64,000 nucleotides of DNA from Candidatus Nomurabacteria bacterium (GCA_028286645.1 JAQBRF010000004.1:408942-472941); one strand, 5' to 3'; shown: positions 1 through 62,373, numbered from the stretch's first letter. Program-made: numbers and translations. The notes: a model not told the origin generated them from the sequence alone.

Positions 1-27
1 TCTAAAATCTAAAGTCTAATATCTAGT

Positions 28-1455
28 TTAGTATAGCTTTTCAAAGTCTTTCCCAACAGTGAATAGCCTGTCTTCTCTACCATGGGAAGCAATGAATTGA
101 ATACCGAACGGAAGATCAGATGTATCTTTCCCAGAGGGAATTGATATAGCAGGAACACCCACTATGTTTACAGGTACGGTGAAAATGTCAGCCAGATACA
201 TACTCATCGGATCTTGAGACTTTTCTCCAATGGCAAACGCAGTTGTAGGAGCAGTAGGAGTGGCGATGATATCTACTTCTTCAAAAACTTTTTCAAATTC
301 TTTCTTTAAAAGCTCTCGCGCAATATTTGCTTTATTATAGTATGCATCGTAATAACCAGATGAAAGCACATACGTCCCAAGCAATATTCTTCTTCTTACT
401 TCAGGGCCGAATCCTGCTGTGCGAGATTCAAAGTAACTTCTAATGCTTGTTTCTCCTGGATGAGATAGTCCATAACGTATGCCATCATAGCGCGCGAGAT
501 TGCTTGATACTTCGGCAAACATAATAATATAATATACAGAGAGAGTTTTTTCTAATTGATTTATCGATATGTCTTTTACTTCATAGCCTACCTTTTTTAA
601 CTTTTCAAGTGATTCATTAAAGTTCTTTAAAACTTCAGAATCTACCCCCTCTCTATTTATAAATGATATCGGGACTCCAATCTTTTTATTAAAGATTCCA
701 TCATGTTTCCTCTTTTCAAGAGGTAATGATGTGGCGTCGAGCGGATCATTACCAGTAATTATTTTATATACTTCTTCTACATCTTCAACAGTTTTTCCAA
801 ATGGACCCACCTGATCAAGGGATGACCCCATAGCCATAACTCCGTATCTTGAATTATCACCATATGTAGTCTTGAGTCCAACCACTCCGCAAAACGAGGC
901 TGGCTGTCTGATTGAACCTCCAGTATCTGTACCGAGTGAAACTGGTACTCCACCATACGCTATAACTGCAGCCGACCCTCCTGAAGACCCTCCAGGAACC
1001 CGATTTATGTTGTGCGGATTTTTGGTTGTTCCATATGCGGAATTCTCAGTCGATCCTCCCATGGCAAATTCATCCATGTTTGCGCGAGCGATAAGTATGG
1101 CGCCCGCTTCTTTTAATCTTTTAATAACCGTTGCGTCATATGTGGCATGATAATTTTCTAAAATTTTAGATGCAGCAGTTGCAAGTTCCCCTTTAACTAA
1201 GATATTATCTTTTATAACAACAGGAATACCGGTTAGTACGGTTGCTGTACCATCTGCAAACATACCTTTTGCTTTTTCAATCTGTGAATTAATTAAATCT
1301 TCTGAATACATTCCTAAAAGAGCATGAATATCTTTATCTTTATCTCCTATAGTCTTCTTGGACTCATCCACCAGCGCCTCCACGGTTAAAGATCCGTTTT
1401 TTAAATCCTCATGTAATTGTTTAATAGTCTTCATGTATTTTCTAAAATCTAACAT
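28..1455 (-). CDS. gatA: Glu-tRNA(Gln)/Asp-tRNA(Asn) amidotransferase subunit A (amidase family)
   Basis: 475 aa. Amidase signature GGSSGGSAAVIA and Ser-cisSer-Lys context. Length and order (gatC immediately upstream) are typical. Confidence 0.9.
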   Translation of the reverse strand: MLDFRKYMKTIKQLHEDLKNGSLTVEALVDESKKTIGDKDKDIHALLGMYSEDLINSQIEKAKGMFADGTATVLTGIPVVIKDNILVKGELATAASKILENYHATYDATVIKRLKEAGAILIARANMDEFAMGGSTENSAYGTTKNPHNINRVPGGSSGGSAAVIAYGGVPVSLGTDTGGSIRQPASFCGVVGLKTTYGDNSRYGVMAMGSSLDQVGPFGKTVEDVEEVYKIITGNDPLDATSLPLEKRKHDGIFNKKIGVPISFINREGVDSEVLKNFNESLEKLKKVGYEVKDISINQLEKTLSVYYIIMFAEVSSNLARYDGIRYGLSHPGETSIRSYFESRTAGFGPEVRRRILLGTYVLSSGYYDAYYNKANIARELLKKEFEKVFEEVDIIATPTAPTTAFAIGEKSQDPMSMYLADIFTVPVNIVGVPAISIPSGKDTSDLPFGIQFIASHGREDRLFTVGKDFEKLY

Positions 1456-1459
1456 CTAG

Positions 1460-11718: not shown

Positions 11719-11937
11719 AGGGATAGATAGTAGACGTTAGACATTAGATGTTAGAAAATACAAATTCTATGCATGATGCTAGTATAAACCGGAAATGTGT
11801 AAAGACAATTGAATAAGTCACAGAAACGAGATGCTAAGGACTAGGCGTTAGGTTTTAGGTGTTAAAATACTAAAGTTACAAATGCAATATATAAATACTT
11901 AGAATTTTCCGTTTCAATAAATTTAATAACTAAACAA

Positions 11938-19156: not shown

Positions 19157-19203
19157 ATAGCTATATAGCAGGCATTAGATTTTAGACGTTAGATAATACA
19201 TTT

Positions 19204-21400: not shown

Positions 21401-21423
21401 TTGATCATCATGTGAGTGCCAGC

Positions 21424-21633
21424 TCAGATGATGATCTCTTTTGGTTGAGGAACGACTTCGTACACCGGCACCGGCAAGTCCGGGTATGTCTGGTACATCG
21501 TCGGCGACGGAACTGGTACTTGTTGCACAGGTGCCGGTTGCTTGACCTGCGACATCATCATCGCAAACACGCTGATCGCTATGATCGCGAGCGAACACGT
21601 CTTCACCACGTCCGAAAAGTCAGTCCAATTCAT
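21424..21633 (-). CDS. small Pro-rich secreted protein (GC-rich islet)
   Basis: 69 aa, signal-peptide-like N-terminus, AAGGGAGAG RBS 6 nt upstream. Confidence 0.45.
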   Translation of the reverse strand: MNWTDFSDVVKTCSLAIIAISVFAMMMSQVKQPAPVQQVPVPSPTMYQTYPDLPVPVYEVVPQPKEIII

Positions 21634-21671
21634 GTTGCTCTCCCTTCTTGGTTATGAGTGATCGAGAGCAT

Positions 21672-22094
21672 CTAGCCAAGCCAGCCAGCGTAAGTGAGAA
21701 ACGTGGTCTCGCGTTTGTGGAAGTCGTATTGCAATGTTTCGGGGTGATCTCCTGGGCTCGTGATCATGATGATACCAATCGCATCCCGTTTAATCGCGGA
21801 GAACACATGCGTTTGTGTTGCAGGATCTCTGGTCACCACAAGCGTACTCCGATAAATCTCGCGCGTGCGTTTGTAGCTGCCCACATTTTCGATCTCGCTC
21901 ACGGTGACATTGTACGTCCCGGGAGCCTTGAAGTGCACTGTGTAGGCGGCGGCTTTTTCATCCCAGCCGTCTTTCGAAGGCTGCACGATGACCCGGCCTC
22001 CGAACATTGGAATATCCCTGGTCTTGTCTCCGTAGACTTGTGTGAAGTAAAAAGCCCCTACTGCCAGTATAAATAATGCAAAAAGCCATCTCAT
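21672..22094 (-). CDS. secreted hypothetical protein (GC-rich islet)
   Basis: 140 aa, signal peptide MRWLFALFILAVGAF, AAGGAAAGGGA RBS. Confidence 0.5.
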   Translation of the reverse strand: MRWLFALFILAVGAFYFTQVYGDKTRDIPMFGGRVIVQPSKDGWDEKAAAYTVHFKAPGTYNVTVSEIENVGSYKRTREIYRSTLVVTRDPATQTHVFSAIKRDAIGIIMITSPGDHPETLQYDFHKRETTFLTYAGWLG

Positions 22095-22197
22095 ATTCCC
22101 TTTCCTTTTCTTTTAAATTAATCAAAGGCGCAAGCGCCGACAGGTTGTATACAATCAAATATATTAGATCATGTTTGTCAATATAAGAAAATTACAA

Positions 22198-22635
22198 CTA
22201 AACACTTTTCTGAATAATCGAAAATATGTTTTTATTTATAAAATTCTCTGGTATTTCATTTGATTTAAACCATTTCCACTCACCGAATTTCTCCGGCTCC
22301 ATGAGCTTTGCTTCTTGATTTGTAGAACATACAAAAACTTCTACAATATCTCCCTCCTTTGCTCCATCTACCTTTCCAATATATTCTTCAATTTTAAGAT
22401 CTGTGATTCCGGTCTCTTCTTCTGTTTCTCTTTTTAAGCATTCTTCTACAGTTTCTCCTTCATCGCCCCTTCCTCCTGGAGTTGTCCAAAATGATCCTAT
22501 CCATTTGTCTGGTGTGTAGTTGCGCAATCCTAATAATATTTTCCCATCACGAATTATAAGCGCCGAAGTTGCTGTCTCGCGGGTTACTTGTGTTTTTAAA
22601 ATTTGGTCCATGTGAAAAAAGTATATCAGTTTCAT
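22198..22635 (-). CDS. NUDIX hydrolase
   Basis: Nudix box GGRGDEGETVEECLKRETEEETGI. AT-rich native composition. TAG stop. Confidence 0.8.
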   Translation of the reverse strand: MKLIYFFHMDQILKTQVTRETATSALIIRDGKILLGLRNYTPDKWIGSFWTTPGGRGDEGETVEECLKRETEEETGITDLKIEEYIGKVDGAKEGDIVEVFVCSTNQEAKLMEPEKFGEWKWFKSNEIPENFINKNIFSIIQKSV

Positions 22636-22682
22636 TTTACAAAAAGAAAAGCTCCGACCGAAGCCGGAGGTTGTCGTCTGTA

Positions 22683-23375
22683 CTAACGTGGGCGACGGGT
22701 GCGCGTACCGAGGAAGCTGGATGCGATGAGGACATCGACTATTCCGCGGTCAGAACCGCCGAGCGAACTTGCGAAGATCGACGCCATCAATGCATCCACA
22801 CCTCCGCTGCCAGAGGACTGTTTCGAACAGGCTACACCATAGGCGCAGATGAGCTCGACGATGAGGCGCATTTGAGGCCCCTCGAGTTTCACCCCTTCCA
22901 GCGCCAAACCGACAGCGAGCTGCATGTTCTGCATACGCACTTCCGGCTCCGGTGGGTACATGGCGCCCGCAAGCAGCGCCTCGAGTTGGGCGATTTTTTT
23001 GTTGTTGCGTTGTGCGCCGAGAGTCTTCCAGTCCGCCAACTGGAAGGGAGCATCGGAGGGCTGCGGTAAGCTTTGATACCACCCGAGCTCTTCGACACCC
23101 GCGGCGACCATCACGGTGCTGTCGGGCCGAATGTGGTCATGAGGACGGCCGTCTTGATCGATGAAGTAAGGCGCTTCCCACGTGTAGGGGCTGCACACAT
23201 CCTTCGCGAGGTAGATCCTCGAAGCTCTGAAGGAGAGATCGAAGGCTCCGTTTTCATGTTTCTTGAGGACCAACACTTTCGTGTCGGCGCATTCGTCGCA
23301 GCCGAAGCCCGTGATCACATCTCCCGGACGCAGGGTCGAGCTGCTCATGGCTTCGCCAACCTTTTTCGTGTGCAT
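22683..23375 (-). CDS. hypothetical protein (GC-rich islet)
   Basis: 230 aa, AAAGGAA RBS, downstream hairpin+T-run terminator at ~22646-22680. No recognisable domain. Confidence 0.5.
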   Translation of the reverse strand: MHTKKVGEAMSSSTLRPGDVITGFGCDECADTKVLVLKKHENGAFDLSFRASRIYLAKDVCSPYTWEAPYFIDQDGRPHDHIRPDSTVMVAAGVEELGWYQSLPQPSDAPFQLADWKTLGAQRNNKKIAQLEALLAGAMYPPEPEVRMQNMQLAVGLALEGVKLEGPQMRLIVELICAYGVACSKQSSGSGGVDALMASIFASSLGGSDRGIVDVLIASSFLGTRTRRPR

Positions 23376-23529
23376 CGCATTCCTTTCTATAGTGTTTGTG
23401 TTGAAATGAGCGCTTCTACTTATTTAAGTAAACAGTACTTCACCACCCTAACAATAAAATCATAATTTGTCAATGAGAGTATAAAAAGAAAAGCCCGTCT
23501 TGCGACGGGTGTGTTTGAAACGGGGGTGA

Positions 23530-23976
23530 TTACTCCCACCATTTCCAGAATGGGAAGAGAGCGCCGATACCGAAGCTCCCGAAACGAATGCCCCCGCCAC
23601 CGGCCAGGCAACCGAATCCGCCGAGGCAAGCGCCGACCGTTACGAAGAGAAATCCGATGTCGAGGTTCGGCCCGATGTAAAAGGCCACTCTCTTGTACCA
23701 GGCCTTACCTGCCGCTTTCTCGGCGGCCAGAGCAAGCTCCGGAAGTAAAAGGGGGAGAATGCGCATTGCACGGATTGCCTTCGGGATATTCCGGAAAGGA
23801 ACCTGAATCATTCGCCTTTCGTCGAGGATTCCTCCGACACTATCCGCGATGCTCGCCAGAACATCTCCACCTCCCCCGCCGCCATCACCCGTGGAAATAT
23901 CGTCTGAGATACCGCTGCCTTCTCCCAGGATTCCTCCAAGGTCGATCACGATCCCTAATGCCACGCCGAAATGCAT
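23530..23976 (-). CDS. glycine-rich protein with GxxxG-rich hydrophobic C-terminus
   Basis: GGGAGGG RBS before MHFGVALG. poly-Gly stretch. C-terminal FLFVTVGACLGGFGCLAGGGGIRFGSFGIGALFPFWKWWE. Confidence 0.45.
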   Translation of the reverse strand: MHFGVALGIVIDLGGILGEGSGISDDISTGDGGGGGGDVLASIADSVGGILDERRMIQVPFRNIPKAIRAMRILPLLLPELALAAEKAAGKAWYKRVAFYIGPNLDIGFLFVTVGACLGGFGCLAGGGGIRFGSFGIGALFPFWKWWE

Positions 23977-24066
23977 AATGTGCCCTCCCAAAATTCCAAC
24001 TGTTACAGAAGCAACCGAAGTTGACTAGTTATAAACTATAATACCATTAATGTTCTGTCAATTACA

Positions 24067-24113
24067 CCTAAACACTGCTTCTATATTATTCCATCTGGGT
24101 CTAGAACGAATAC
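24067..24113 (-). repeat. degenerate copy C of the VOC-gene 3' end (att-like direct repeat)
   Basis: ~45/48 identical to 25845..25893 with one 1-nt deletion. Similarity extends ~15 bp past the former stop codon. Confidence 0.6.
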
Positions 24114-24157
24114 ATCTAATAGTTTTCTCAAATACAAAAGAAAAACCGCACCTGCTT

Positions 24158-24616
24158 TCAGTGCGGACAAGGAACATCTGTGTTAATCTCCATATCGAAA
24201 TACTCATGGAGCATTTGCGGTTCTACTCTAAATATTTTGTATGGAATGATGGGCGTGGTAGCCACATAGAAAAGTCCATTCCGTACAGGTGCAAAATATT
24301 CGCGCGGAAGAACGTACACATAACCCGTGCGATAGCGCACATTCCTTCCTGTTACGATAACCTTGCGGTTGCGTAACCCCCAATGAAGGTACCCGTGCTT
24401 GCTCCGTATACGGAGTACTGCGTGAAGGATAGCTATCCCGGATGATGTTGTTGCATAGATTGCGTTTAAATTATTCTCCGGAATCCCCGTCGTGCAAATC
24501 GCTTTTCTCGGCTCCACTTTACTAAGTAGCCACGGCGAGCCATGAAATAAAAAATTCTCTCGGTCAATGCGTATCAAAGGATATACGTTCGATATTCTCT
24601 TTTGAATTGCTCTCAT
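24158..24616 (-). CDS. hypothetical protein (cassette A, GC-rich)
   Basis: GGAGAAG RBS before the second Met (MRAIQKRIS...). 152 aa. Confidence 0.45.
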   Translation of the reverse strand: MRAIQKRISNVYPLIRIDRENFLFHGSPWLLSKVEPRKAICTTGIPENNLNAIYATTSSGIAILHAVLRIRSKHGYLHWGLRNRKVIVTGRNVRYRTGYVYVLPREYFAPVRNGLFYVATTPIIPYKIFRVEPQMLHEYFDMEINTDVPCPH

Positions 24617-24679
24617 GATACTTCTCCGCATGTAGTGGTTTCTATCAAACTACAGCACAGATGATACTTAGTCAATCAT

Positions 24680-24728
24680 CCCTAAACACTGCTTCTATAT
24701 TATTTACATTTGGATCTAGGACGAATGC
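24680..24728 (-). repeat. copy B of the VOC-gene 3' end (att-like direct repeat)
   Basis: 47/49 identical to 25845..25893. Encodes AFVLDPNVNNIEAVFRDD*. Confidence 0.65.
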
Positions 24729-24796
24729 AGGAGTAACTTCAATTATAAAAAAAATAGACCACCGAGGTGGTCTATTACTCGGCGCGGAAGAGGTCC

Positions 24797-25237
24797 TTAC
24801 TCTTCGTATACGCGCAGAATCTTGATGAACGGATAGCGTTTGGCGCTGTACGCGTAACCCCGCATGATGTCTCTCATGCCGCGGTACTCTTCATCGTAAC
24901 CGTGGTTGTACGAAATGCGATTTGCCCACCAGTAATACCTGAATCCTTCGGTGCGGACAAACACTTCGTACTCTTCTGGCACAAACTGCACCAGTCTGCA
25001 GTTGAAGGCACGACTTGTCGTGGTTATGCACACTCGTAGCGGGGTGGTGGTGACTTTCGCCACCTTCACCCATGGAGCTGATAAATTCCAGCCCGGCGTG
25101 TCACGCTTCACCTCGCCCGTAAATGCATTTCGCATGATACCTACCTGAGTGGGCTCGCTATGATGCATGAACGGAAAGTAGATGAGCGCGCCGAGGAGAA
25201 GAAGGGCGCCGGCAACGAGGATGTGTAGATGCTTCAC
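24797..25237 (-). CDS. membrane-anchored hypothetical protein (cassette B, paralog 1)
   Basis: GTG start overlapping the upstream stop (GTGA). N-terminal TM. Shared motifs P..VCI......NC.LVQF and YAY.....YPF with 25234..25752. Confidence 0.5.
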   Translation of the reverse strand: MKHLHILVAGALLLLGALIYFPFMHHSEPTQVGIMRNAFTGEVKRDTPGWNLSAPWVKVAKVTTTPLRVCITTTSRAFNCRLVQFVPEEYEVFVRTEGFRYYWWANRISYNHGYDEEYRGMRDIMRGYAYSAKRYPFIKILRVYEE

Positions 25238-25752
25238 TTGGCATCCTCGTTCTTGAGTTCTCGCACGACGGAAAGGAATGGATATATCTTCCCCGTTCCT
25301 TCGTATGCGTAACTCTTGAGGATTTCGGAAAAGTCCGTTGTTCTTTCTTTTCCGCCCTTTCTACTACCTCCGGTTCCCGGCCCTTCGTAGTCCCGCCGGC
25401 CATGCCAGGAAAGGAAGAGATCGAGTCCCTTCGCATTGAACTGCACAAGCTTGCAGTTGAGCACACGCTGATTCGCATTGATGCACACCTGCATCGGCCG
25501 CAAGTCGACCGTATGATACTGCTCGACGATCGGCGTTCGTACGAAGTAGCCGGTCCTCTCGAGTGTCGTGATCTTCCCAGTGCGGGTATTGAACACATAG
25601 CCCTGTTGGTAGGTGTCGACGAACTGGACAAACCATATCCAGGTCACGCCGATGATCACGAGTGCAATGATGGTGAGTCCCGCCAGAAAATACCCCAACT
25701 TTAGCCAGAGCCTGCGCGAATTGAAGCCCTCTTTCATACTTTTCTCAGCCAT
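25234..25752 (-). CDS. membrane-anchored hypothetical protein (cassette B, paralog 2)
   Basis: AGAGGA RBS. 172 aa. N-terminal TM. Weak SPFH/band-7-like pattern (low confidence). Confidence 0.5.
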   Translation of the reverse strand: MAEKSMKEGFNSRRLWLKLGYFLAGLTIIALVIIGVTWIWFVQFVDTYQQGYVFNTRTGKITTLERTGYFVRTPIVEQYHTVDLRPMQVCINANQRVLNCKLVQFNAKGLDLFLSWHGRRDYEGPGTGGSRKGGKERTTDFSEILKSYAYEGTGKIYPFLSVVRELKNEDAK

Positions 25753-25833
25753 TATGAATGTCCTCTTGTGTCGTTAATCGGAACAGCCCACATGCACTGT
25801 CTAGAATTACACTATAATATCTTCCGATGTTCG

Positions 25834-26211
25834 TCAACAGTACCCCCTAAACACTGCTTCTATATTATTTCCATCTGGATCTAGGACGAATGCGGCGTAA
25901 TAGTTTGGTCCGTAGATTGGACGACCCCCTGGTGCTCCATTATCTTTTCCACCTACTTTTATTGCTTCTTTATAAAATGCGTTCACTTCTACATTTCCAT
26001 TAGCTTTATACGCTAAATGCGTCGGACCGCTTATCGGCTCATCATTTGTGATCCAAGTATCATTCTTCCCAACATTTGCGAATCCTAAAATCTGCACTCC
26101 CTAGTAATTAAAATCCATGGCGAGTGTGTATCCAAGTGGTAGAAGTGCTTGCTTATAAAATTCTCTAGCTTTGTTTATATCCGAAACTCGGATGGTGATG
26201 TAGTCGAGCAT
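25834..26211 (-). pseudogene. VOC/glyoxalase-family gene interrupted by an in-frame TAG. Its 3' end is the repeated att-like sequence.
   Basis: Single reading frame MLDYITIRVSDINKAREFYKQALLPLGYTLAMDFNY-TAG-GVQILGF...AAFVLDPDGNNIEAVFRGYC. VOC betaalphabetabetabeta signature. Confidence 0.55.
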
Positions 26212-26226
26212 AAACAATATATTAAA

Positions 26227-26610
26227 TTATATGTTCTGCATTGTTTCCAGAGGAGACTCTTTAGTTTCTCCTTTTTCTGTATATTTCACTATACATGTAT
26301 TTAAAAAAGAATCATAATAAATACCCACCACATTATTCCATCTCTGCTGAAGAGAGGTAAGCAAGGAATTACATTTAAGGGTATTGTCGAATAATTGTTT
26401 GTCTTCTTCTTTCTTGGTCTGTTCTACCTTTGTCTCCGCTTCTATTAATTGTTGTTTTTCAATTGATTTCTGCTTATTTATTTGAGCGGCATAGAAAAAA
26501 CCTCCTAAAACAATACATCCAAAAATTATACTTATAGATAGAATTAAGCTATTTTTATTCATAATAATGAGTTTACCCTTTTTATGGAACCACCCTACTC
26601 CTTTATACAC
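26227..26610 (-). CDS. small membrane protein, co-oriented downstream of the P-loop NTPase
   Basis: 127 aa, one TM (SLILSISIIFGCIVLGGFFYA), coiled-coil, 35-nt gap to the NTPase gene. Confidence 0.45.
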   Translation of the reverse strand: MYKGVGWFHKKGKLIIMNKNSLILSISIIFGCIVLGGFFYAAQINKQKSIEKQQLIEAETKVEQTKKEEDKQLFDNTLKCNSLLTSLQQRWNNVVGIYYDSFLNTCIVKYTEKGETKESPLETMQNI

Positions 26611-26645
26611 TTTCTGTAAAGGTCAGACTTTAAAAAATAAGAAAA

Positions 26646-28139
26646 TTACTTCTTTCTCTTTTGCGCAAACCAATACAGACCTCTATGTAGGAAAAAGGAA
26701 TACTCCTTAAATTTTTTTACAAGAAGAGGATAATTACTCGATATATATTTAAAATGTATAACCTTATCATTTTTTTCTTTAAAACCGATCACACCATACC
26801 ACCATAATTCTTGGATAAATTCTTGAATTCTATTCCATCCTAATTTTGTTTTTACTCCTAAATATTGACCTAATTCCGTTTTAAGCTGTGAAACATTAAA
26901 ACCTTCTTTCCCACTTAATAAGTCTATAAGTTCATTAATATTATCCTGGCTAAAATTATATTTTAAGAGACGACTTATCAAAAATAGTTCATCTTTTAAT
27001 TCTTTTGTAAAATATTCCGAGTATTCTATTTCTGCAGAATCAATATTCTCAAAAGTTGCTGGATGTTTTGTGCTTAATCTATCTCTCATAGCATAACAAA
27101 ACTTGAGAAAATCTCTTGGTCGATTAAATGATATGGCGATCATATAAGCGTAAAAGTTGGTAGCATAACGATTTGTTTCAAAGTTTTCTAATGTTTTTGA
27201 AAAGATTGTATCTGGAAACTGGCTACGTAATGCTTTTATTGGATCACTCAAACTTTCTTGAAGTCTGTCTTGGTAGTATGGAATACGACGTATTAAAAGA
27301 CTTGCAAAACTTTTTTCATTCCATTCAAGTTTTAATGAGTCATTTATGAGTTTGTTGATATTTGATCCTTGCATAAACTCAAACAAATCATCTCTAATAA
27401 GACATATAAATCTCAATTTTTTACCTGAATCTCTAAAAATAGAATTATACAGGTCCAAACTAAGAAGTAATTCTCTAATCGTAACTAAATCTTCTTTAAG
27501 TTTTTTTTCATCTGCCTCATCTAAATAATCACTGATATCATCAATAAATATAAAAATAGTATCTTCTTTTGGCGTTGTTTCTTTTAACGAATTTATAAGA
27601 GAAGATGGCGCATTGGATATGACTGACCTAGTAGACTGCGACTCATCTTCTGTATTTGCTCCGCCTTCTGCCTTTGCGAACAAAGAATTTAACCATCCCT
27701 TTACAGAAAATCCTGTCTTATTTACTCTTCTTGTTTCTATAAACGTCTCATAATCTGAAGTATCTTGTAGACCGTTTTGTGTTAAAAAATCTAACCAGTA
27801 ACTTTCTGAACTCCCAATAAAAAGCTTTTCTTCAAGAAATTTTTGAATTGTTTTTATTATTATAAAAAAGAGTATTGAATTTAAATGATCGTTGAAACTC
27901 TCTCCTTCTGTAAGAGAAACACTCCTTATAGATATTCTATAGGATAATTTAATTCCATAATCTTGAGACTTTTGCTCTAAATACCTAGCTATGGCAGTTT
28001 TTCCTGTTCCTTTCCTTCCGCAAAGAATTGAATAGTTAGATGTAGTTATTGAATTAATAAACCCCGCATCATGAAAACACTCAAATAAATAATCGTCTTT
28101 TTCAGCTTCGGTCTGACGCTGGATTTTAAATTCTGACAT
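26646..28139 (-). CDS. predicted P-loop NTPase (KAP/STAND-like), unknown function
   Basis: 497 aa. Walker A ILCGRKGTGKTAI, Walker B IFIFIDDISDYLDE ~170 aa later, long helical C-terminal region. Confidence 0.6.
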   Translation of the reverse strand: MSEFKIQRQTEAEKDDYLFECFHDAGFINSITTSNYSILCGRKGTGKTAIARYLEQKSQDYGIKLSYRISIRSVSLTEGESFNDHLNSILFFIIIKTIQKFLEEKLFIGSSESYWLDFLTQNGLQDTSDYETFIETRRVNKTGFSVKGWLNSLFAKAEGGANTEDESQSTRSVISNAPSSLINSLKETTPKEDTIFIFIDDISDYLDEADEKKLKEDLVTIRELLLSLDLYNSIFRDSGKKLRFICLIRDDLFEFMQGSNINKLINDSLKLEWNEKSFASLLIRRIPYYQDRLQESLSDPIKALRSQFPDTIFSKTLENFETNRYATNFYAYMIAISFNRPRDFLKFCYAMRDRLSTKHPATFENIDSAEIEYSEYFTKELKDELFLISRLLKYNFSQDNINELIDLLSGKEGFNVSQLKTELGQYLGVKTKLGWNRIQEFIQELWWYGVIGFKEKNDKVIHFKYISSNYPLLVKKFKEYSFFLHRGLYWFAQKRKK

Positions 28140-28256
28140 AGCTATAAAATAAAAAGCTTTATCCTAATATTTCCATAGTCTACTCCCTAAAAAGGATAAT
28201 ACTAGCTGCTTTTAAATTTGCTTTCTCTCCTTTTTGTTATGTAAATTTAATAAGTC

Positions 28257-28604
28257 TTACATCCCGCCCTTGCTCACTTCCATGATATCTATGAAAGATG
28301 TTGGAATTGCGAAATGAGGATTTTCCTTAAACATTTCAGTAACTTCTTCAGCAGATTCAGCTTGTACGATGCACATATAATTCATGTCATTCGTTACTGG
28401 CTTTGCTCCAGTTGCGTCCACTCGAGTATTCTTCCCAAGAGGAAGTCCTTCACCCACAAATGATGCTTTATGCTTTTCCGTCCACGCCATCATATCAGCT
28501 CCTAGCTTCTCCCCTTGTTCCTTCATTTTCTCCGGTGGAGTATTCTTCTTCCACTCTTCCATTGTCTCCACAGGCACACGATATATAATTACAAATTTTT
28601 TCAT
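28257..28604 (-). CDS. hypothetical protein
   Basis: 115-aa ORF divergent from the cassette array. No motif. Confidence 0.45.
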   Translation of the reverse strand: MKKFVIIYRVPVETMEEWKKNTPPEKMKEQGEKLGADMMAWTEKHKASFVGEGLPLGKNTRVDATGAKPVTNDMNYMCIVQAESAEEVTEMFKENPHFAIPTSFIDIMEVSKGGM

Positions 28605-28622
28605 ATGTATATTCTAGCACAT

Positions 28623-28651
28623 TGCCTTATTTTCTTTTATGTTGTAGATTC
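28623..28651 (+). promoter_or_regulatory. promoter of cassette 1 (TTGCCT-N17-TAGATT)
   Basis: Same -35/-10 architecture and spacing as the intercistronic modules R1-R4. Confidence 0.45.
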
Positions 28652-28681
28652 AAGGAGATAGATCACAGGGAGATTTGTGCC

Positions 28682-28915
28682 ATGAATATTCCGAAAGACA
28701 AGAACTACCCGCCAGACGCTGTGCAGTGCAACGAATGTGGTGGGTGGGGTGAAACAGAAAGAAACGAAGACTGCGAGACCTGTGGAGGAAAAGGATGGCT
28801 TCCGCATGGCCATCCGAAAGGCAGAAAGTGCTATCGCGAGGTATGCACCAACACCATCCCTCCCGCGCAAGTCGCCGTTTACTGCACAAATGAATGCGCC
28901 CACCTCGACGCATAA
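28682..28915 (+). CDS. small Cys-rich zinc-ribbon protein (cassette 1)
   Basis: GGGAGA RBS. 77 aa with CNECGG...CETCGG plus further Cys/His. Confidence 0.5.
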   Translation: MNIPKDKNYPPDAVQCNECGGWGETERNEDCETCGGKGWLPHGHPKGRKCYREVCTNTIPPAQVAVYCTNECAHLDA

Positions 28916-28931
28916 CGGCATCCCTGCAATA

Positions 28932-28998
28932 CCCCGGGCCTCGTGGCCTGGGATTTTTTATTTGCTTTTCAATTTTATCTATTGTAGGTTTAGGGGGA
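28932..28998 (+). promoter_or_regulatory. terminator-promoter-RBS module R1
   Basis: GC hairpin CCCGGGCC-TCGT-GGCCTGGG + T-run, then TTGCTT-N17-TAGGTT, then TAGGGGGAA. 67/67 identical to R3. Confidence 0.6.
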
Positions 28999-29035
28999 AA
29001 TGCACCGTACCTAACTCGCCTGAGGAGACATCACA

Positions 29036-29433
29036 TGACTGTACCGAAACAGGACGAAAAAGACGCCATATGCTTCCTCGCGTTTTACATCAGCAGCGAA
29101 GGACCCCCTGCGTTCTACGTATTGGGGCCGAATCTCCCCACCTCGGACTTCGGTCATGAGAGCCTTGAGAGGTTTGCCTCAAATGTAGCAACAGCGATCG
29201 GAGGTGCCGGTACTTGCCACATGCAGCCACCGTATGCCGAGTATCTCATCATCAAGGACGACCAGGTGAAAGTCTCCGGGGGAAGCGCGGGCCTCCGGAT
29301 CGCCGAAGATGTGGCGAAGAGCAAGAAGATCGAGGGGTACCTCAATTCTAACAACCGCGCCAAAGACGCGCTGCTCAACCTTTCCCCGCTCATTCGCTGG
29401 CGGACAGTGCAGCAAATCATTATCCCTCTGTAA
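29036..29433 (+). CDS. hypothetical protein (cassette 2)
   Basis: GAGGAG RBS 6 nt upstream. 132 aa. GC-rich. Confidence 0.5.
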
Positions 29434-29448
29434 CTGCGACCACGATCG

Positions 29449-29600
29449 ACCCGAGCCCTCACGGCTCGGGATTTTCTTTCCTATAGCCGAGCAAAGCACG
29501 CTATAGGATTGCACCCTATACCGAGCTCTGCTCTGGTGTAGGGTTTTGCTTAAATTTTTTAAATGGTGTAGTGTAATTTTGAACCAGACCTGATTTCCTA
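29449..29600 (+). promoter_or_regulatory. terminator-promoter module R2 (variant with two hairpins)
   Basis: CCGAGCC-CTCA-CGGCTCGG + T-run. Second hairpin ACCCTATACC/GGTGTAGGGT. TTGCTT-N17-TAGTGT. Confidence 0.5.
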
Positions 29601-29615
29601 CCAACTGGAGCCGAT

Positions 29616-48671: not shown

Positions 48672-48846
48672 AGAAGTACTATGATACTATATAAACATAC
48701 CAGGTACTAGGTTTTAGGGACTGGGTACTAGAAAAATTGGATTTCTGTCCAGAAGAAAAAACCCTAAAACTTTAAGCAAAAATCATAAAAAACCGTTTAA
48801 ACGAAATTTCAAATGAACAGATTTAGGTTTTAAAATTTAGGAATTT

Positions 48847-48891
48847 ATCTAAAATCTAACATCTAATGTCTAACGCCTACTATCTATCCCT
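48847..48891 (+). promoter_or_regulatory. tandem-heptad (TCTAAnn)x6 leader element abutting the valS start codon
   Basis: TCTAAAA TCTAACA TCTAATG TCTAACG CCTACTA TCTATCC CT-ATG. 35/36 identical to the element before pilT. Confidence 0.5.
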
Positions 48892-51039
48892 ATGAAGCAA
48901 TTACCCGAACAACTCACTAAGCCATATAACCCTCAATCTGTAGAAACGGAGCTTTATAAAACATGGGAAGAAAGCGGGTATTTCAACCCAGATAATTTGC
49001 CAGGAGAAAGGACTGAGAGCTTCACCATTGTGCTTCCCCCACCAAATGTAACAGGAACTCTGCATACGGGCAGCGCTATCATGCTTGCAATACAAGACTC
49101 TATAATAAGATTTAAAAGAATGAGAGGCTACAAAGCGCTTTGGATTCCTGGAACAGATCATGCGGCAATTGCTACTCAATCTAAAGTAGAAAAAGAAATT
49201 TATAAAAAAGAAGGAAAGAATAGACATGATTTAGGAAGAGAAGAAATGCTGAAGCGTATTAATGAATTCGCATTAGAGAGCCAGAACACCATTCTTTCTC
49301 AAATGCGGTCAATCGGAGCCTCGCTTGATTGGTCACGACTCGCGTTTACCCTCGATGAAAAGCGTAATCTTGCGGTACGAACAATGTTTAAGAAAATGTA
49401 TGATGACGGTCTTATATACAGAGGATCAAGAATCGTGAATTGGGATCCGAAGGGTCAAACAACTATAAGCGATGATGAAATTGTGTCTGAGGAAAGAAAG
49501 GCAATTCTTTATACATTTAAATACTCCAACGATTTTCCTATTGCAATCTCCACTACTCGCCCCGAAACTAAAGTGGGAGATACAGCGGTTGCGGTACACC
49601 CTGAAGATGAAAGATACAAAGATTTTATCGGCAATGAATATGATTTAGAATTTGCGGGATGTCCCATACATATAAAAGTTATCGCCGATACCGCGGTTGA
49701 GAAGGACTTCGGAACAGGAGCTCTTGGAGTTACGCCAGCGCACAGCATAACGGATTGGGAAATGGCCGATAGGCACTCGCTTCCTCGCCCTCAAGTAATA
49801 AACGAATACGCAAAGATGGTAGGACTTAAAAATGAAGAATTAAATGGCAAAAGAGTAACAGACGCGCGAGAATATATCGTCAATTGGTTAAAAGAGAATA
49901 ATTTATTAACTAATGAAGAAGAAATTACTCAGAATGTCCCTACGGCCGAAAGAACGGGTGGAGTTATAGAGCCTCTTCCTAAATTACAGTGGTTTATAGC
50001 GGTTAATAAAAGTTTTAACCATTTTGGCAATGAAATCACCCTCAAAAAATTAATGGCAGCCGCTGTTTCAAGTAAAGCAATCAATATACTGCCTGATCGA
50101 TTCGAAAAAGTTTATTTCCATTGGACAGAGAACCTGCGAGATTGGTGCATCAGCAGACAAATATGGTACGGACATAGAATTCCTGTTTGGTATAAAGAAG
50201 GAAAAATATATTGTGATATAAATTCACCTAAAGAAGAGGGCTGGGAGCAAGATGAAGATACACTAGACACCTGGTTTTCTTCGGGACTTTGGACATTTTC
50301 TACATTAGGCTGGCCAGATCAAACCAAGGACCTAAAGACATATCACCCGACGGACCTTTTAGAGACGGGCCATGATATTCTTTTCTTCTGGATAGCGAGA
50401 ATGATACTTTTCTCAACATATGCACTAAATGAAGTACCCTTTAAGCAAGTGTATCTACATGGATTAGTGCGTGACGCCAAGGGAAGAAAGATGAGCAAGT
50501 CGTTAGATAATATTTTGGATCCAAGAGACTTGTCAGAAAAGTATGGGACAGACGCTCTGCGCATGTCATTATTAGTAGGGAATGGTCCAGGAAATGATCT
50601 TAAGCTAGGAGAGGATAAAATCAAAGCCTACAAACTGTTTGCCAATAAAATATGGAACGCGGCACGCTTTGTATTAGAGAGAACTCAAGATTTTGAAAAG
50701 GAAGTAAATTTAATAGAAGAAGATCAGTCTGTTTATGAAACTTGGAGAGAAATCCATAAGGACATTACATCGGATGTAGAAAATTATCGCCTGCACTTAG
50801 CCACCGAAAAAATATATGATTATTTTTGGAAAGTTTTCTGTGATGAAATTATTGAAACGAGAAAGACAAGAATACTTGATGATATTGATAAAGCGAGCGC
50901 TCAAACCCTTCTTCTTAAGCTTCTTCGAGAGCAATTGATAGTTGTCCACCCTTTTATGCCATTTATAACTGAAGAATTATGGAAGTACGTAAAGAAAGAT
51001 GGTGAAGGCCTGTTGATGATTACAAATTGGAACGGGTAG
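48892..51039 (+). CDS. valS: valyl-tRNA synthetase (short form)
   Basis: Class I HIGH-region PPPNVTGTLHTGSA (ValRS-type PxxNxTGxLHxGH) and KMSKS. 715 aa, shorter than the ~880 aa canonical enzyme. Confidence 0.8.
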   Translation: MKQLPEQLTKPYNPQSVETELYKTWEESGYFNPDNLPGERTESFTIVLPPPNVTGTLHTGSAIMLAIQDSIIRFKRMRGYKALWIPGTDHAAIATQSKVEKEIYKKEGKNRHDLGREEMLKRINEFALESQNTILSQMRSIGASLDWSRLAFTLDEKRNLAVRTMFKKMYDDGLIYRGSRIVNWDPKGQTTISDDEIVSEERKAILYTFKYSNDFPIAISTTRPETKVGDTAVAVHPEDERYKDFIGNEYDLEFAGCPIHIKVIADTAVEKDFGTGALGVTPAHSITDWEMADRHSLPRPQVINEYAKMVGLKNEELNGKRVTDAREYIVNWLKENNLLTNEEEITQNVPTAERTGGVIEPLPKLQWFIAVNKSFNHFGNEITLKKLMAAAVSSKAINILPDRFEKVYFHWTENLRDWCISRQIWYGHRIPVWYKEGKIYCDINSPKEEGWEQDEDTLDTWFSSGLWTFSTLGWPDQTKDLKTYHPTDLLETGHDILFFWIARMILFSTYALNEVPFKQVYLHGLVRDAKGRKMSKSLDNILDPRDLSEKYGTDALRMSLLVGNGPGNDLKLGEDKIKAYKLFANKIWNAARFVLERTQDFEKEVNLIEEDQSVYETWREIHKDITSDVENYRLHLATEKIYDYFWKVFCDEIIETRKTRILDDIDKASAQTLLLKLLREQLIVVHPFMPFITEELWKYVKKDGEGLLMITNWNG

Positions 51040-52485: not shown

Positions 52486-52660
52486 TGGTCACGAGTTACT
52501 AAATTGCGCTAACTGCACTTTGTGCAGATTGCTCATAAGTACTCTCGACCCGGCCTCCTGGTTTTAAAAAGTCAGGAAGAAAACTTTTTAAAACATCAGT
52601 GCGGCACACAAAACTAAAAATCTTTAGCAGAAAAGATTTTCTTTACGTTTTGTGCCCCCG
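52486..52660 (-). repeat. conserved tRNA-downstream structured element, copy 2
   Basis: Homolog of 34764..34931. Hairpin AACTGCAC-TTT-GTGCAGATT, identical 11-bp IR, terminator-like hairpin AAAATCTTT-AGCAGA-AAAGATTTT with the same loop. Confidence 0.55.
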
Positions 52661-52732
52661 GCGGGAATCGAACCTACAATAACTCCTTAGGACGGAGCAG
52701 TTATATCCATTTAACTACGGGGGCAATAAGAG
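52661..52732 (-). tRNA. tRNA-Arg (anticodon CCU), one mismatch in the T-stem
   Basis: Close match to argW-type tRNA: acceptor GCCCCCG/CGGGGGC, D-arm TAGTTAAATGGATATAACT, anticodon loop containing CCT, T-loop TTCGATT. Confidence 0.6.
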
Positions 52733-58774: not shown

Positions 58775-58845
58775 AAAATTATACTATCATATTTAAAGAA
58801 AAAGAACTCCTTTCGGAGTTCTTTTTCATATTTGTGGTTCTACCT

Positions 58846-59170
58846 ATAAGCCGGATTCTGTCTTCACTTGCGTGATGTGTAATCATTTATCTGGGATGAC
58901 TGTTACCAATCACCTCAAGCGGCACTCCTGTATTACTACAGGCACGGCCTTGCACACATGTAAGGATTTAGCCGTTTCAATCATGCGTTACCGCATGCAT
59001 CATCCGCATTACTGCGGAGTTCTTTGCTTTCGCTTGGAACGTCTCTGCTCGCACCTCTTAGATTGCTCTAGACGGGTGTTACCCGCTACAATTGAACAAT
59101 TAAATGTTCTGTGTGTCCGGACTTTCCTCCCTGATTGCTCAGAGCAATTACCCAGTAGAACCTCTTTAGA
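58846..59170 (-). ncRNA. rnpB: RNase P RNA (bacterial type)
   Basis: Minus-strand GGAGGAAAGTCCGGACAC (P4 5' strand) and GACAGAATCCGGCTTAT (P4 3' strand). P1 pairing GGTTCTACT/AGGTAGAACC. Promoter TTGTCA-N16-TAATCT upstream. Confidence 0.75.
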
Positions 59171-59225
59171 TTAGCATTTTATTAGCATATTGACAATGTC
59201 GATATAAATGATATGATACAAGAGC

Positions 59226-62251: not shown

Positions 62252-62373
62252 AAAATATGAATAGAAAACCGGCTCGAGAACGGCTCGTAGCCGGAATTCT
62301 TAATGCGAAAATTATAACACAAAAGGCTGTTTTGCACTAGTAAAAAGAAATCGGCATTTCTGCCGATAGTTCC

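What the first reader, a model, noticed from the sequence alone, without database searches (positions are those of the whole stretch)
48847..48891. Tandem-heptad (TCTAAnn)n element fused to start codons of pilT, valS and an ASCH gene
The motif copies:
- valS has TCTAAAA TCTAACA TCTAATG TCTAACG CCTACTA TCTATCC CT-ATG immediately upstream.
- The pilT copy at 11719..11761 (minus strand) is 35/36 identical.
- Before the ASCH gene (19157..19199, minus strand) the variant is CTAACGT CTAAAAT CTAATGC CTGCTAT ATAGCTA T-ATG.
- Related copies sit at 1..27 and 1441..1455 in the opposite orientation. The latter overlaps the gatC stop / gatA start junction.

Shared context and consequences:
- The upstream ~100 bp of the pilT and valS intergenic regions also share TTAGGnn heptads and an AACCG(G)TTTA segment.
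- No Shine-Dalgarno is present at these three starts. The element ends 1-2 nt before the ATG.
- This implies either leaderless or very short-leader mRNAs with a promoter embedded in the repeats, or a repeat-binding regulator co-controlling functionally unrelated genes.
- A 7-nt periodic leader like this is not a standard bacterial signal that I know of.
Basis: seen in the sequence. Interest (0 to 1): 0.6.

Follow-up and report, generated by a model that had tools for sequence, protein, structure and literature searches.

The report
Seven-base repeats abutting start codons
Short runs of a 7-base repeat (TCTAAnn) sit directly against the start codons of several unrelated genes in this tiny-genome bacterium; they are real and non-random, but they belong to an already described and still unexplained class of start-codon-proximal heptamer repeats, and most likely form ribosome-binding-site-free leaders rather than a promoter or shared switch.

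Summary
TCTAAnn heptad arrays lie at five sites in the window (8 pattern hits against 0.04 expected). All five are intergenic, and four visibly end 0-4 nt from a start codon with no Shine-Dalgarno sequence. The fifth, at the window edge, is presumed to precede gatB.

The genome is a Candidatus Nomurabacteria MAG (Patescibacteria). It is poor in Shine-Dalgarno sequences and rich in leaderless-type starts (TAnnnT 6-8 nt before ATG).

Orthologue comparison shows the arrays are lineage-specific insertions:
- Four relatives have no array before valS.
- Three relatives have TATACT-N6-ATG before pilT.
- The window and its closest relative keep that same promoter, but 62 nt carrying five CTA-phased heptads now separate it from the ATG.

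So the array makes a leader; it is probably not the promoter.

Arrays resemble each other within a genome more than they resemble their orthologues (valS and pilT copies 41/42 identical). In relatives they also occur inside 5'UTRs, between operon genes, and just upstream of -10 boxes.

TCTAAnn arrays are widespread. Their bias towards start codons is strong in Cyanobacteria and Bacteroidota (30 forward, 2 reverse).

The closest precedent is the TAACTGA repeats of MacGregor 2015. Verdict: a new variant of a known kind; function unproven.

The parts
48848..48891 (+). valS array: TCTAAAA TCTAACA TCTAATG TCTAACG CCTACTA TCTATCC CT, followed by the valS ATG at 48892.
   Evidence: Absent upstream of valS in four relatives of 79-86% identity.
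11719..11762 (-). pilT array, read on the minus strand: TGTATTT TCTAACA TCTAATG TCTAACG TCTACTA TCTATCC CT, followed by the pilT ATG at 11718.
   Evidence: 41/42 identical to the valS copy. The orthologue L243 has five CTA-phased heptads at the same place; L244, L245 and L246 have none.
11781..11808 (-). Conserved pilT promoter (TTGTCT/TTTACA, spacer, TATACT). It is now 62 nt upstream of the ATG because of the array.
   Evidence: consensus scan; the count is not above shuffles. One search shows the same block in L243, and in L244-L246 it lies 6 nt before the ATG.
19157..19200 (-). ASCH array: TGTATTA TCTAACG TCTAAAA TCTAATG CCTGCTA TATAGCT AT, then ATG at 19156. It fills all but 3 nt of the 47-nt spacer after the upstream gene's stop (19204-19206).
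1435..1459 (-). Reverse-orientation copy forming the whole gatC-gatA spacer. On the mRNA strand: TAA CTAGATG TTAGATT TTAGAAA ATAC ATG.
   Evidence: Conserved in L243, longer in L195, partial in L246, absent in L245.
1..27 (-). Reverse-orientation copy directly after the gatA stop (28-30); presumably the gatA-gatB spacer. It is cut by the window edge.
48698..48729 (+). G-rich heptads (GTACTAG GTTTTAG GGACTGG GTACTAG) at the 5' end of the ~190-nt insertion upstream of valS. They are inverted relative to the TCTAAnn array.
   Evidence: Pairing with 48848-48891 on the + strand RNA is -18.8 kcal/mol, z = -1.8, which is inconclusive.
48822..48847 (+). TTTAGGn/TTTAAAA heptads abutting the valS array in inverted orientation.
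   Evidence: pairing not above shuffles.
11842..11864 (-). CCTAAAA CCTAACG CCTAGTC heptads upstream of the pilT promoter, in the same orientation as the pilT array.

Best explanation
**What it is**

The elements are members of a family of CTA-phased heptanucleotide simple-sequence repeats; the flavour in this genome is TCTAAnn. Such arrays probably arise and turn over by 7-nt slippage (inferred). Within a genome they are copied or homogenised.

In this compact genome, which is poor in Shine-Dalgarno sequences and rich in leaderless-type starts, they have lodged at two kinds of place:
- between an existing promoter and an unchanged ancestral start codon (pilT, valS);
- between cistrons (the gene upstream of ASCH and ASCH, gatC-gatA, gatA-gatB).

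**How it most likely works**

The arrays are transcribed and form the leader or intercistronic spacer that touches the AUG. For the TCTAAnn flavour this RNA has three properties:
- it is G-poor;
- it has essentially no predicted structure;
- it carries stop codons in all three frames.

Initiation would therefore proceed without a Shine-Dalgarno sequence, either on an open start region or by reinitiation after the upstream stop.

**Shown and inferred**

Shown:
- the arrays are non-random and biased towards start codons;
- they are insertions relative to orthologues;
- the old pilT promoter is retained;
- copies within one genome resemble each other;
- this start-codon-fused placement recurs in relatives, Cyanobacteria and Bacteroidota; the arrays themselves occur far more widely.

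Inferred:
- that the arrays are transcribed in this organism;
- that they help translation rather than merely permit it.

They are not the promoter, and there is no evidence that they co-regulate the genes that carry them.
For: **Non-randomness and position**
- 8 hits against 0.04 expected.
- In the window plus 8 relatives' loci (217 kb) there are 10 arrays with at least 4 CTA at period 7, against 0.1 in shuffles.
- Nine of these are intergenic. Eight of the nine point towards a start within 25 nt, and five of the nine end 0-4 nt from the ATG.
- Random intergenic placement gives 15% and 4.5% respectively, so P is about 2e-6 and 2e-5.

**Insertion, not ancestral signal**
- valS: the SET-valS spacer is 55-70 nt without heptads in four relatives and 220 nt here. 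The N-terminus MKQLPEQ is unchanged, and the ancestral 'tatataaaca(ta)cc' is now ~190 nt from the ATG.
- pilT: L244, L245 and L246 have TATACT-N6-ATG. The window and L243 keep the promoter but have 62 nt with five heptads in the same register. CTA is identical in 15 of 15 positions; the other positions match in only 2 of 20.

**Transcribed context elsewhere**
- L184 and L241: TTTACA-N17-TATAAT, then the array, then GGAGG and ATG.
- L162: terminator, TGCTAGAAT, array, ATG.
- L121 typA: the array lies inside a conserved long 5'UTR.
- L219: rplN-rplX spacer. L195: gatC-gatA spacer.

**Concerted evolution within genomes**
- The valS and pilT copies are 41/42 identical.
- The L243/L121 loci (one metagenome sample, probably one organism) use GCTAnnn/CTACACG flavours instead.

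**Low structure**
- RNA folding energy of -45..+18 is 0.0 for valS and -1.0 for pilT. These rank 1 and 2 of 84 starts (median -6.9). gatA ranks 8.

**Literature context**
- Initiation in SD-less Bacteroidetes is tuned by mRNA structure (PMC6847099).
- The anti-SD motif was detected in only 48% of Parcubacteria (PMC9297842).
- The same pattern was described for TAACTGA, including 7-nt indels and repeat-free relatives (PMC4679880).
- Forward-to-start bias of TCTAAnn arrays: Cyanobacteria 16 to 0, Bacteroidota 14 to 2.
Against: - No transcription start data exist for this organism.
- The valS and pilT copies do contain TACTAT 8 nt before the ATG. This falls within the 6-8 nt range seen at other starts, so a second, leaderless promoter inside the array is not excluded here.
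- Two arrays in relatives lie upstream of an extended -10 (L243 gatC, L122 grx) and need not be transcribed.
- 'Unstructured' is not a general property. The G-containing array before L121 typA ranks 126 of 148, and ASCH ranks only 23 of 84.
- The three forward copies carry an upstream AUG (CTAATG), which is unexpected for an initiation-promoting leader.
- About 60% of TCTAAnn arrays across genomes are not next to any start.
- The orientation bias could come from how the repeats are seeded, not from function.
Confidence: 0.5

Rival explanations
1. Neutral simple-sequence DNA. The arrays are slippage products seeded by oriented motifs that already sit near starts (CTAT-ATG contexts, TATACT/TAGAAT boxes). 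They persist only where they do no harm and have no role in expression.
For: - Absent at orthologous valS, Mur-ligase, typA and grx positions in close relatives.
- Variable copy number at the gatC-gatA junction.
- Placement on either side of the -10 box.
- About 60% of arrays across genomes are not start-adjacent.
- Heptanucleotide repeats are the commonest long simple repeats in prokaryotes, according to Mrazek 2007 as cited in PMC4679880.
Against: - The CTA phase and the heptad number (five) are kept between the window and L243 while every other position has turned over.
- The gatC-gatA copy is retained down to 76% GatA identity.
- The phase relative to the ATG is locked: offset 0-1 nt in most start-fused copies.
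- Orientation bias is 30 to 2 in Cyanobacteria plus Bacteroidota.
- Essential genes (valS, gatCAB) must still be translated through the arrays.
Confidence: 0.22
2. Binding array for a trans-acting factor. This could be a DNA-binding repressor that reads tandem heptads, as the omega repressor of inc18 plasmids does. It could instead be an RNA-binding protein with a ~7-nt footprint (cold-shock protein, S1) that coats the leader. Either would give co-ordinated control of the genes carrying arrays.
For: - An invariant 3-5 nt core with free positions in each heptad is the pattern expected of a protein footprint.
- Genome-specific flavours (TCTAAnn here, GCTAnnn/CTACACG in L243/L121) fit co-evolution with a factor.
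- Copies occur in both orientations.
- MacGregor proposed S1, Csp or CsrA for TAACTGA.
Against: - No candidate factor was identified.
- The genes carrying arrays have no functional theme.
- Arrays are missing from the same genes in close relatives.
- The same heptad occurs in contigs from 16% to 66% GC and in many phyla. That argues for a universal property, not a dedicated regulator.
- Strong strand bias relative to the gene argues against a purely DNA-level operator.
Confidence: 0.13
3. Promoter module for leaderless mRNAs. The 3' end of the array (TACTAT-N8-ATG) would be a -10 box that starts transcription at the ATG. The upstream heptads, each reading TAAnnT, would act as spare -10s or an UP-like element. 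The 42-nt unit would be a copied 'mobile promoter'.
For: - TACTAT lies 8 nt before the ATG in valS and pilT, and again in L162 and L230. TAATAT or TAAAAT lies at N8 in L212 and L140.
- The genome shows a TAnnnT peak at 6-8 nt.
- The 42-nt unit shared by two unrelated genes runs into the ATG.
Against: - The ASCH copy has no TAnnnT at the right distance.
- The orthologous L243 pilT array has no TAnnnT at all, yet keeps the old TATACT promoter 62 nt upstream.
- GCTAnnn-flavour arrays cannot read as -10 boxes.
- In L184 and L241 the array lies downstream of a consensus promoter and upstream of a GGAGG.
- The consensus promoter scan finds nothing inside the arrays.
- No terminal inverted repeats or target duplications bound the 42-nt unit.
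Confidence: 0.1
4. Phase-variation (contingency) locus. Changes in copy number of a heptanucleotide repeat between promoter and start would switch expression, as with (ATCTTTC)n upstream of hmw1A in Haemophilus influenzae. There the repeat forms a 5'UTR hairpin with a G-rich arm.
For: - Position between promoter and ATG.
- A G-rich inverted heptad block lies upstream of valS. It can pair with the array only on the mRNA strand: -18.8 against -13.5±3.0 kcal/mol.
- Precedent: PMC12721329.
Against: - The arrays are short (3-6 units) and imperfect, which is poor substrate for frequent slippage.
- The genes are housekeeping, not surface or contingency genes.
- The pairing is not significant (28 of 500 shuffles do as well), and the whole region folds no better than shuffles (z = -0.75).
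- The one independent assembly of this region is identical.
Confidence: 0.05

Closest known systems
TAACTGA heptamer direct repeats of marine Beggiatoaceae, some Cyanobacteria and Bacteroidetes (MacGregor 2015, PMC4679880)
   Same: - Two to six tandem 7-nt units, often interrupted by related heptamers.
- Intergenic, pointing towards the downstream gene, most often ending ~1 nt before a start codon that has no RBS.
- Functionally unrelated downstream genes, including essential ones and ribosomal-protein operons.
- Strain-specific; close relatives have shorter repeat-free spacers; indels come in 7-nt steps.
- Function unknown.
   Different: - The unit is TCTAAnn (more generally CTA-phased with free positions), not TAACTGA.
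- The host is a Patescibacterium, a phylum not covered in that paper.
- Reverse-orientation copies serve as operon spacers here.
- This work adds that the arrays were inserted between a conserved leaderless-type promoter and the ATG.
Long simple sequence repeats of prokaryotes (Mrazek 2007, as cited in PMC4679880) and cyanobacterial short tandemly repeated heptamers (STRR; recalled from my own knowledge, not checked here)
   Same: - Heptanucleotide unit, the most abundant class of 5-11 nt repeats.
- Sporadic phylogenetic distribution.
- Perfect (TCTAAAA)n arrays found here in Microcoleus, Nostoc, Symploca and others.
   Different: - The window's arrays are short and imperfect: only 5 of 7 positions are fixed.
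- They are phase-locked to start codons.
(ATCTTTC)n repeat in the hmw1A/hmw2A 5'UTR of Haemophilus influenzae (PMC12721329)
   Same: - A heptanucleotide, pyrimidine-rich repeat transcribed between promoter and start codon.
- A possible G-rich pairing partner upstream.
   Different: - There the arrays are long, perfect and phase-variable, control an adhesin, and act through an RNase III-cleaved hairpin.
- Here they are short and imperfect, precede housekeeping genes, and the hairpin is not significant.
Heptad operators of the omega repressor (inc18 plasmids) and MetJ metbox arrays (from my own knowledge, not checked here)
   Same: Tandem 7-8 bp units in direct or inverted orientation at gene 5' ends, each unit a protein-binding site.
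   Different: - No sequence resemblance to WATCACW.
- No cognate repressor found.
- Strand bias and very wide distribution do not fit a dedicated operator.
SD-independent initiation in Bacteroidetes (Baez 2019, PMC6847099) and leaderless initiation
   Same: - Start selection without a Shine-Dalgarno sequence.
- Dependence on an open start region.
- The window genome shows both rare SD motifs and -10 boxes 6-8 nt from the ATG.
   Different: - Those mechanisms need no repeats.
- AUG is depleted near starts in Bacteroidetes, whereas these arrays contain an upstream AUG.

Membership tests
Start-codon-proximal heptamer direct repeats (MacGregor 2015 type) | Tandem direct repeats of a 7-nt unit, 2-6 copies, sometimes split by related heptamers | tested here: met
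   3-6 units per site, period exactly 7.
Start-codon-proximal heptamer direct repeats (MacGregor 2015 type) | Intergenic, forward orientation, ending within a few nt of a start codon | tested here: met
   - Window: valS, pilT and ASCH copies end 2 nt before the ATG in the TCTAnnn register.
- Clade census: 8 of 9 forward, 5 of 9 within 0-4 nt; P about 2e-6 and 2e-5.
- Two window copies are in reverse orientation.
Start-codon-proximal heptamer direct repeats (MacGregor 2015 type) | No recognisable ribosome-binding site between repeat and start | tested here: met
Start-codon-proximal heptamer direct repeats (MacGregor 2015 type) | Unit sequence TAACTGA | tested here: not met
   The unit is TCTAAnn. 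This is therefore a different repeat of the same kind, not the same family by sequence.
Start-codon-proximal heptamer direct repeats (MacGregor 2015 type) | Lineage-specific: relatives have shorter, repeat-free spacers; length changes in 7-nt steps | tested here: met
   - valS, Mur ligase, typA, grx and pilT comparisons.
- The gatC-gatA spacer has 3 heptads here and in L243, 5 in L195, about 2 in L246, and none in L245.
Leaderless promoter (-10 box 6-8 nt before ATG) | TAnnnT ending 6-8 nt upstream of the start codon, with no other promoter needed | tested here: inconclusive
   - Met by sequence in valS and pilT (TACTAT-N8).
- Not met in ASCH or in the orthologous L243 array.
- The ancestral TATACT promoter is retained 62 nt upstream.
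- The transcription start was not measured.
Phase-variable heptanucleotide 5'UTR repeat (hmw1A type) | Long, perfect array (11 or more units) prone to slippage | tested here: not met
   3-6 imperfect units.
Phase-variable heptanucleotide 5'UTR repeat (hmw1A type) | Repeat arm pairs with a G-rich arm in a stable 5'UTR hairpin | tested here: inconclusive
   - + strand duplex -18.8 against -13.5±3.0 kcal/mol, 28 of 500 shuffles as good.
- Minus strand z = +0.2.
- Whole-region fold z = -0.75.
Heptad operator array of an omega-type repressor | Heptads matching the repressor's consensus, and a cognate ribbon-helix-helix repressor in the genome | not tested
   No similarity to WATCACW by eye. No search for a repressor was made, and only 64 kb of the genome is available.
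Miniature mobile element / mobile promoter | Defined ends with terminal inverted repeats and target-site duplication; multiple near-identical copies | tested here: not met
   - Only one 42-nt pair is near-identical.
- The flanks do not align.
- No target duplication at the valS insertion.
- The ends of the ~190-nt valS insertion are inverted heptad blocks, but these pair only marginally.
Known structured RNA families (Rfam 15) | Match to a covariance model | tested here: not met
   - No match at gathering score in the window at these sites.
- No meaningful match at E up to 1 in either region.

The most novel reading that the evidence does not exclude
CTA-phased heptad arrays (TCTAAnn and its genome-specific flavours) may be a genuine, widely shared cis-signal for Shine-Dalgarno-independent translation. 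In this reading, a conserved component of the initiation machinery or an RNA chaperone with a ~7-nt footprint (S1 or a cold-shock protein) reads them. The signal would be used in Cyanobacteria, Bacteroidota and some Patescibacteria. It would let a lineage convert leaderless genes into leadered ones without evolving a ribosome-binding site.
Probability: 0.15. Interest if true: 0.75.

Novelty: new variant of a known kind. Interest (0 to 1): 0.45.

Why it matters
How ribosomes choose start codons in the many bacteria that hardly use Shine-Dalgarno sequences is only partly understood. Start-proximal heptamer repeats have been reported once, in uncultivated sulfur bacteria, and were never explained.

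This case adds three things:
- It extends the phenomenon to the Candidate Phyla Radiation (Patescibacteria).
- It shows by orthologue comparison that an array can be dropped between a leaderless-type promoter and its ATG, before pilT and probably also before the essential valS, and persist there.
- It shows that one particular heptad (TCTAAnn) has a 30-to-2 forward bias towards start codons in Cyanobacteria and Bacteroidota. Both phyla contain culturable, genetically tractable species in which the effect of heptad number on translation could be measured directly.

If the arrays prove neutral, they remain a useful marker of slippage-driven turnover of 5' regions in reduced genomes.

Tried and rejected
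- **Array of -10 boxes.** Each TCTAAnn+T reads TAAnnT. Rejected as a general reading, because the related GCTAnnn and CTACACG arrays at the same or equivalent positions cannot read as -10 boxes.
- **Three-frame stop insulator.** TAA every 7 nt blocks all frames in the window's arrays. Not general: the L243 pilT array has only two stops.
- **uORF coupling.** The valS and pilT copies encode a 9-codon uORF (AUG in CTAATG) whose UGA overlaps the main AUG as AUGA. It is not conserved: the ASCH uORF stops earlier and L243 has no AUG.
- **Pairing with the 16S 3' tail.** Could not be tested, since there is no 16S gene in the window or the loci.
- **Extended homology between the valS and pilT upstream regions.** Beyond the 42 nt there is none.
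- **Structured RNA.** Region folds are not better than shuffles. The pilT z of -1.79 is due to the upstream terminator hairpin. No Rfam match.
- **Consensus promoter scan.** Hits are not above the shuffle expectation.
- **GCTAATG period-7 run at 17737-17768.** It lies inside comF and is unrelated.
- **Literature search for TCTAAAA/TTTTAGA repeats.** Nothing relevant was found.
- **Reaching the rest of this genome.** The 514-kb NCBI contig was not retrievable. The exact-protein look-up returned only an identical 17.6-kb Logan contig.

Full report
**1. Observation**

- valS is preceded by TCTAAAA TCTAACA TCTAATG TCTAACG CCTACTA TCTATCC CT-ATG (48848-48891).
- pilT, on the minus strand, is preceded by TGTATTT TCTAACA TCTAATG TCTAACG TCTACTA TCTATCC CT-ATG (11719-11762).
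- The ASCH gene is preceded by TGTATTA TCTAACG TCTAAAA TCTAATG CCTGCTA TATAGCT AT-ATG (19157-19200).
- Two further copies lie in the opposite orientation. One fills the 25-nt gatC-gatA spacer (1435-1459). The other follows the gatA stop (1-27).

A three-heptad pattern with one mismatch allowed hits 8 times at these 5 sites, against 0.04 expected. Period-7 self-similarity is enriched: 23 segments against 3.8 in shuffles. The valS and pilT copies are 41/42 identical through ATGAA. This is the longest repeat between different loci in the window that lies outside paralogous genes and outside the repeat families near the GC-rich segment and the tRNA genes.

Gene identities were checked: valS, pilT, and ASCH, GatC, amidase/GatA and SET. 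None of the three forward starts has an SD-like motif.

**2. Organism and its initiation signals**

The valS and pilT proteins are 100% identical to entries named Candidatus Nomurabacteria bacterium (MAG), on a 514-kb contig. The window has 39% GC and is about 89% coding.

SD-like motifs are rare upstream of its roughly 83 ORFs. TAnnnT hexamers peak 6-8 nt before the ATG, at 27 of 83 starts. This is the signature of leaderless transcripts.

Published work reports that the anti-SD motif was detected in only 48% of Parcubacteria, and that their S1 proteins are short (PMC9297842).

**3. Orthologue comparison**

Synteny around valS (SET-valS-HSP20) is kept in four relatives of 79-86% ValRS identity.

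- Their SET-valS spacers are 55-70 nt long and contain no heptads. The window has 220 nt.
- The protein N-terminus is unchanged.
- A block that abuts the ATG in L121 (catataaacacc|ATG) lies ~190 nt upstream in the window.

For pilT the picture is clearer.

- L244, L245 and L246 carry a conserved -35 region and TATACT, followed by 6 nt and the ATG.
- The window and its closest relative L243 (86%) keep that promoter block, but 62 nt now separate TATACT from the ATG.
- Both have tttgtattt followed by five heptads in the same register. The window has CTAACAT CTAATGT CTAACGT CTACTAT CTATCCC. L243 has CTATACG CTACACG CTACTAA CTACACG CTAAACA.
- CTA is kept in all five heptads, while the other positions agree in 2 of 20.
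- The L243 array has no TAnnnT near the ATG.

The array is therefore an insertion that turns a leaderless-type gene into one with a ~55-nt leader. It is unlikely to be the promoter itself.

The reverse copy at gatC-gatA is conserved in L243 (GatA 89% identical), longer in L195 (77%), partial in L246 (76%) and absent in L245 (67%). All four array-bearing versions end in AAATAC-ATG.

**4. Census in the clade**

In the window plus eight relatives' loci (217 kb), ten arrays have at least four CTA at period 7, against 0.1 in shuffles. One of them is the coding comF run. Of the nine intergenic arrays:

- eight point towards a start within 25 nt;
- five end 0-4 nt from the ATG (valS, pilT, L243 pilT, L124 Mur ligase, L121 typA);
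- two sit just upstream of an extended -10 of a leaderless-type promoter (L243 gatC, L122 grx).

Random intergenic placement gives 15% and 4.5% for these two measures. That puts P at about 2e-6 and 2e-5, or 3e-4 if valS and pilT are counted as one event.

At typA every relative has an extended -10 about 90 nt upstream plus a leader hairpin. L121 has its array inside that 5'UTR, so the array is transcribed there.

**5. Wider distribution**

Matches came from Cyanobacteria (perfect TCTAAAA runs), Bacteroidota, Patescibacteria, Acidobacteriota, Ignavibacteria, Clostridia and others.

The table gives the number of evaluable arrays with a long ORF starting within -9..+40 nt, in the forward and the reverse direction.

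| Group | Arrays | Forward | Reverse |
|---|---|---|---|
| All genomes | 125 | 32 | 10 |
| Cyanobacteria | 42 | 16 | 0 |
| Bacteroidota | 41 | 14 | 2 |
| Other Patescibacteria | 7 | 0 | 2 |
| Other phyla | 35 | 2 | 6 |

A metagenome scan for the array plus its 3' module found 118 loci, with GC content from 16% to 66%. The informative cases are:

- L184 and L241 (about 60% GC): TTTACA-N17-TATAAT, then the array, then GGAGG-ATG.
- L162: terminator, TGCTAGAAT, then an array ending CTACTATCTACCCCT-ATG.
- L212 and L140: TGTATTn heptads, then the array, then CTACC..-ATG.
- L219: a reverse array between rplN and rplX.

In other Patescibacteria the arrays often come as inverted pairs that can form hairpins.

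**6. Mechanism**

The best-supported reading is a slippage-born, intragenomically homogenised heptanucleotide repeat that is transcribed as the leader or spacer touching the AUG.

For the TCTAAnn flavour this RNA is G-poor. It gives the two least structured start regions of the window: folding energy 0.0 and -1.0 kcal/mol, against a median of -6.9 over 84 starts. That fits what is known of SD-independent initiation (PMC6847099).

This property is not general, however. The G-containing L121 array is more structured than average, at rank 126 of 148. So benefit, as opposed to tolerance, is not shown.

A possible long-range pairing between G-rich heptads (48698-48729) and the valS array exists only on the mRNA strand, and it is marginal (z = -1.8). 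The regions do not fold better than shuffles, and nothing matches Rfam.

**7. Comparison with what is known**

The closest precedent is the TAACTGA heptamer repeats of Candidatus Maribeggiatoa (PMC4679880).

- There are 169 sets in that genome, most of them forward.
- The largest class ends 1 nt before RBS-less starts.
- The repeats occur in front of unrelated and essential genes.
- They are also found in Cyanobacteria and Bacteroidetes.
- Relatives lack them, and indels come in 7-nt steps.

The window's elements meet every defining feature of that kind except the unit sequence, and they occur in a phylum not reported there. Other comparisons gave the following:

- The hmw1A (ATCTTTC)n 5'UTR repeat (PMC12721329) is the only experimentally dissected analogue. 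It is long, perfect and phase-variable.
- Omega-type heptad operators are a formal analogue only.

**8. Verdict**

This is a real, non-random feature and a new variant of a known but unexplained kind. The promoter-in-repeat reading is disfavoured, and a co-regulating factor is neither supported nor excluded. Interest is moderate, at 0.45. The main value is that the same heptad shows a strong start-codon bias in culturable phyla, which makes the open question experimentally testable.

Noticed in passing
window 21000-31700: A segment of raised GC (0.47-0.49, against ~0.38 elsewhere) ends next to tRNA-Ser (31641-31729). It contains many short or overlapping ORFs with GTG/TTG starts and may be an integrated foreign island.
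   Followed up: no
window 28926-29000, 30080-30154, 30541-30615: Three copies (96% and 61% to the reference) of a 75-nt unit: a GC-rich hairpin with a T-run, followed by TTGCTTTTCAATTTTATCTATTGTAGGTTTAGGGGGAAA. It looks like a repeated terminator-plus-start module inside the GC-rich segment (family D2). Families D11/D12 (24033, 24647, 25845) are similar.
   Followed up: no
window 34779-34882 and 52502-52605: A 104-nt direct repeat (87% identical), each copy lying about 50 nt from a tRNA gene (tRNA-Glu 34931-35003, tRNA-Arg 52652-52724).
   Followed up: no
window, all gene starts: The genome-wide start signature is leaderless-like. TAnnnT ends 6-8 nt before the ATG at 27 of 83 starts, often as an extended -10 (TGnTAGAAT / TGnTATAAT). 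G is depleted at -1 to -6, and few SD motifs occur.
   Followed up: partly
window 48866-48895 and 11744-11715 (minus strand): The valS and pilT arrays contain an upstream AUG (in CTAATG). It opens a 9-codon uORF (MSNAYYLSL / MSNVYYLSL) whose UGA overlaps the main start as AUGA. The ASCH copy has a 4-codon uORF ending 4 nt before the ATG. The feature is not conserved in L243.
   Followed up: partly
window 58831-59163 (minus strand): An RNase P RNA (bacterial class A, 126 bits) lies here. The mechanical ORF 58872-59174 on the opposite strand is therefore spurious.
   Followed up: no
window 11981-12568: A 195-aa ORF with no Pfam match, followed by a strong terminator hairpin (11942-11973), lies between pilB and pilT. 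Relatives L243-L246 have pilB directly followed by pilT, so this gene is an insertion in the pilus operon.
   Followed up: partly
L066 1979-2066, 5235-5317, 5893-5976; L090 857-948; L103 6683-6805; L010 6549-6652; L093 2021-2134: In Saccharibacteria and other Patescibacteria, heptad arrays (TCTAATn, AATCCTA and others) occur as inverted pairs separated by 10-40 nt. These would form long hairpins built entirely of heptads, several per 8 kb. Their role is unknown; terminators or mobile elements are possibilities.
   Followed up: no
L184 ~2008-2050 and L241 ~9683-9730: In two high-GC (0.57-0.62) metagenomic contigs, orthologous genes (MNYTHEVE...) have a consensus TTTACA-N17-TATAAT promoter, then a TCTAAnn array starting 2 nt after the -10, then GGAGG and ATG. 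The array differs between the two by one heptad and a few substitutions.
   Followed up: partly
window 62252-62340; L121-L124 upstream of typA/bipA: typA/bipA has a conserved leader in all five genomes: an extended -10 about 70-90 nt upstream, then a GC-rich hairpin followed by a T-run, then ~15 nt and the ATG. This looks like an attenuator or riboregulator, and no Rfam family was found for it at gathering score.
   Followed up: no
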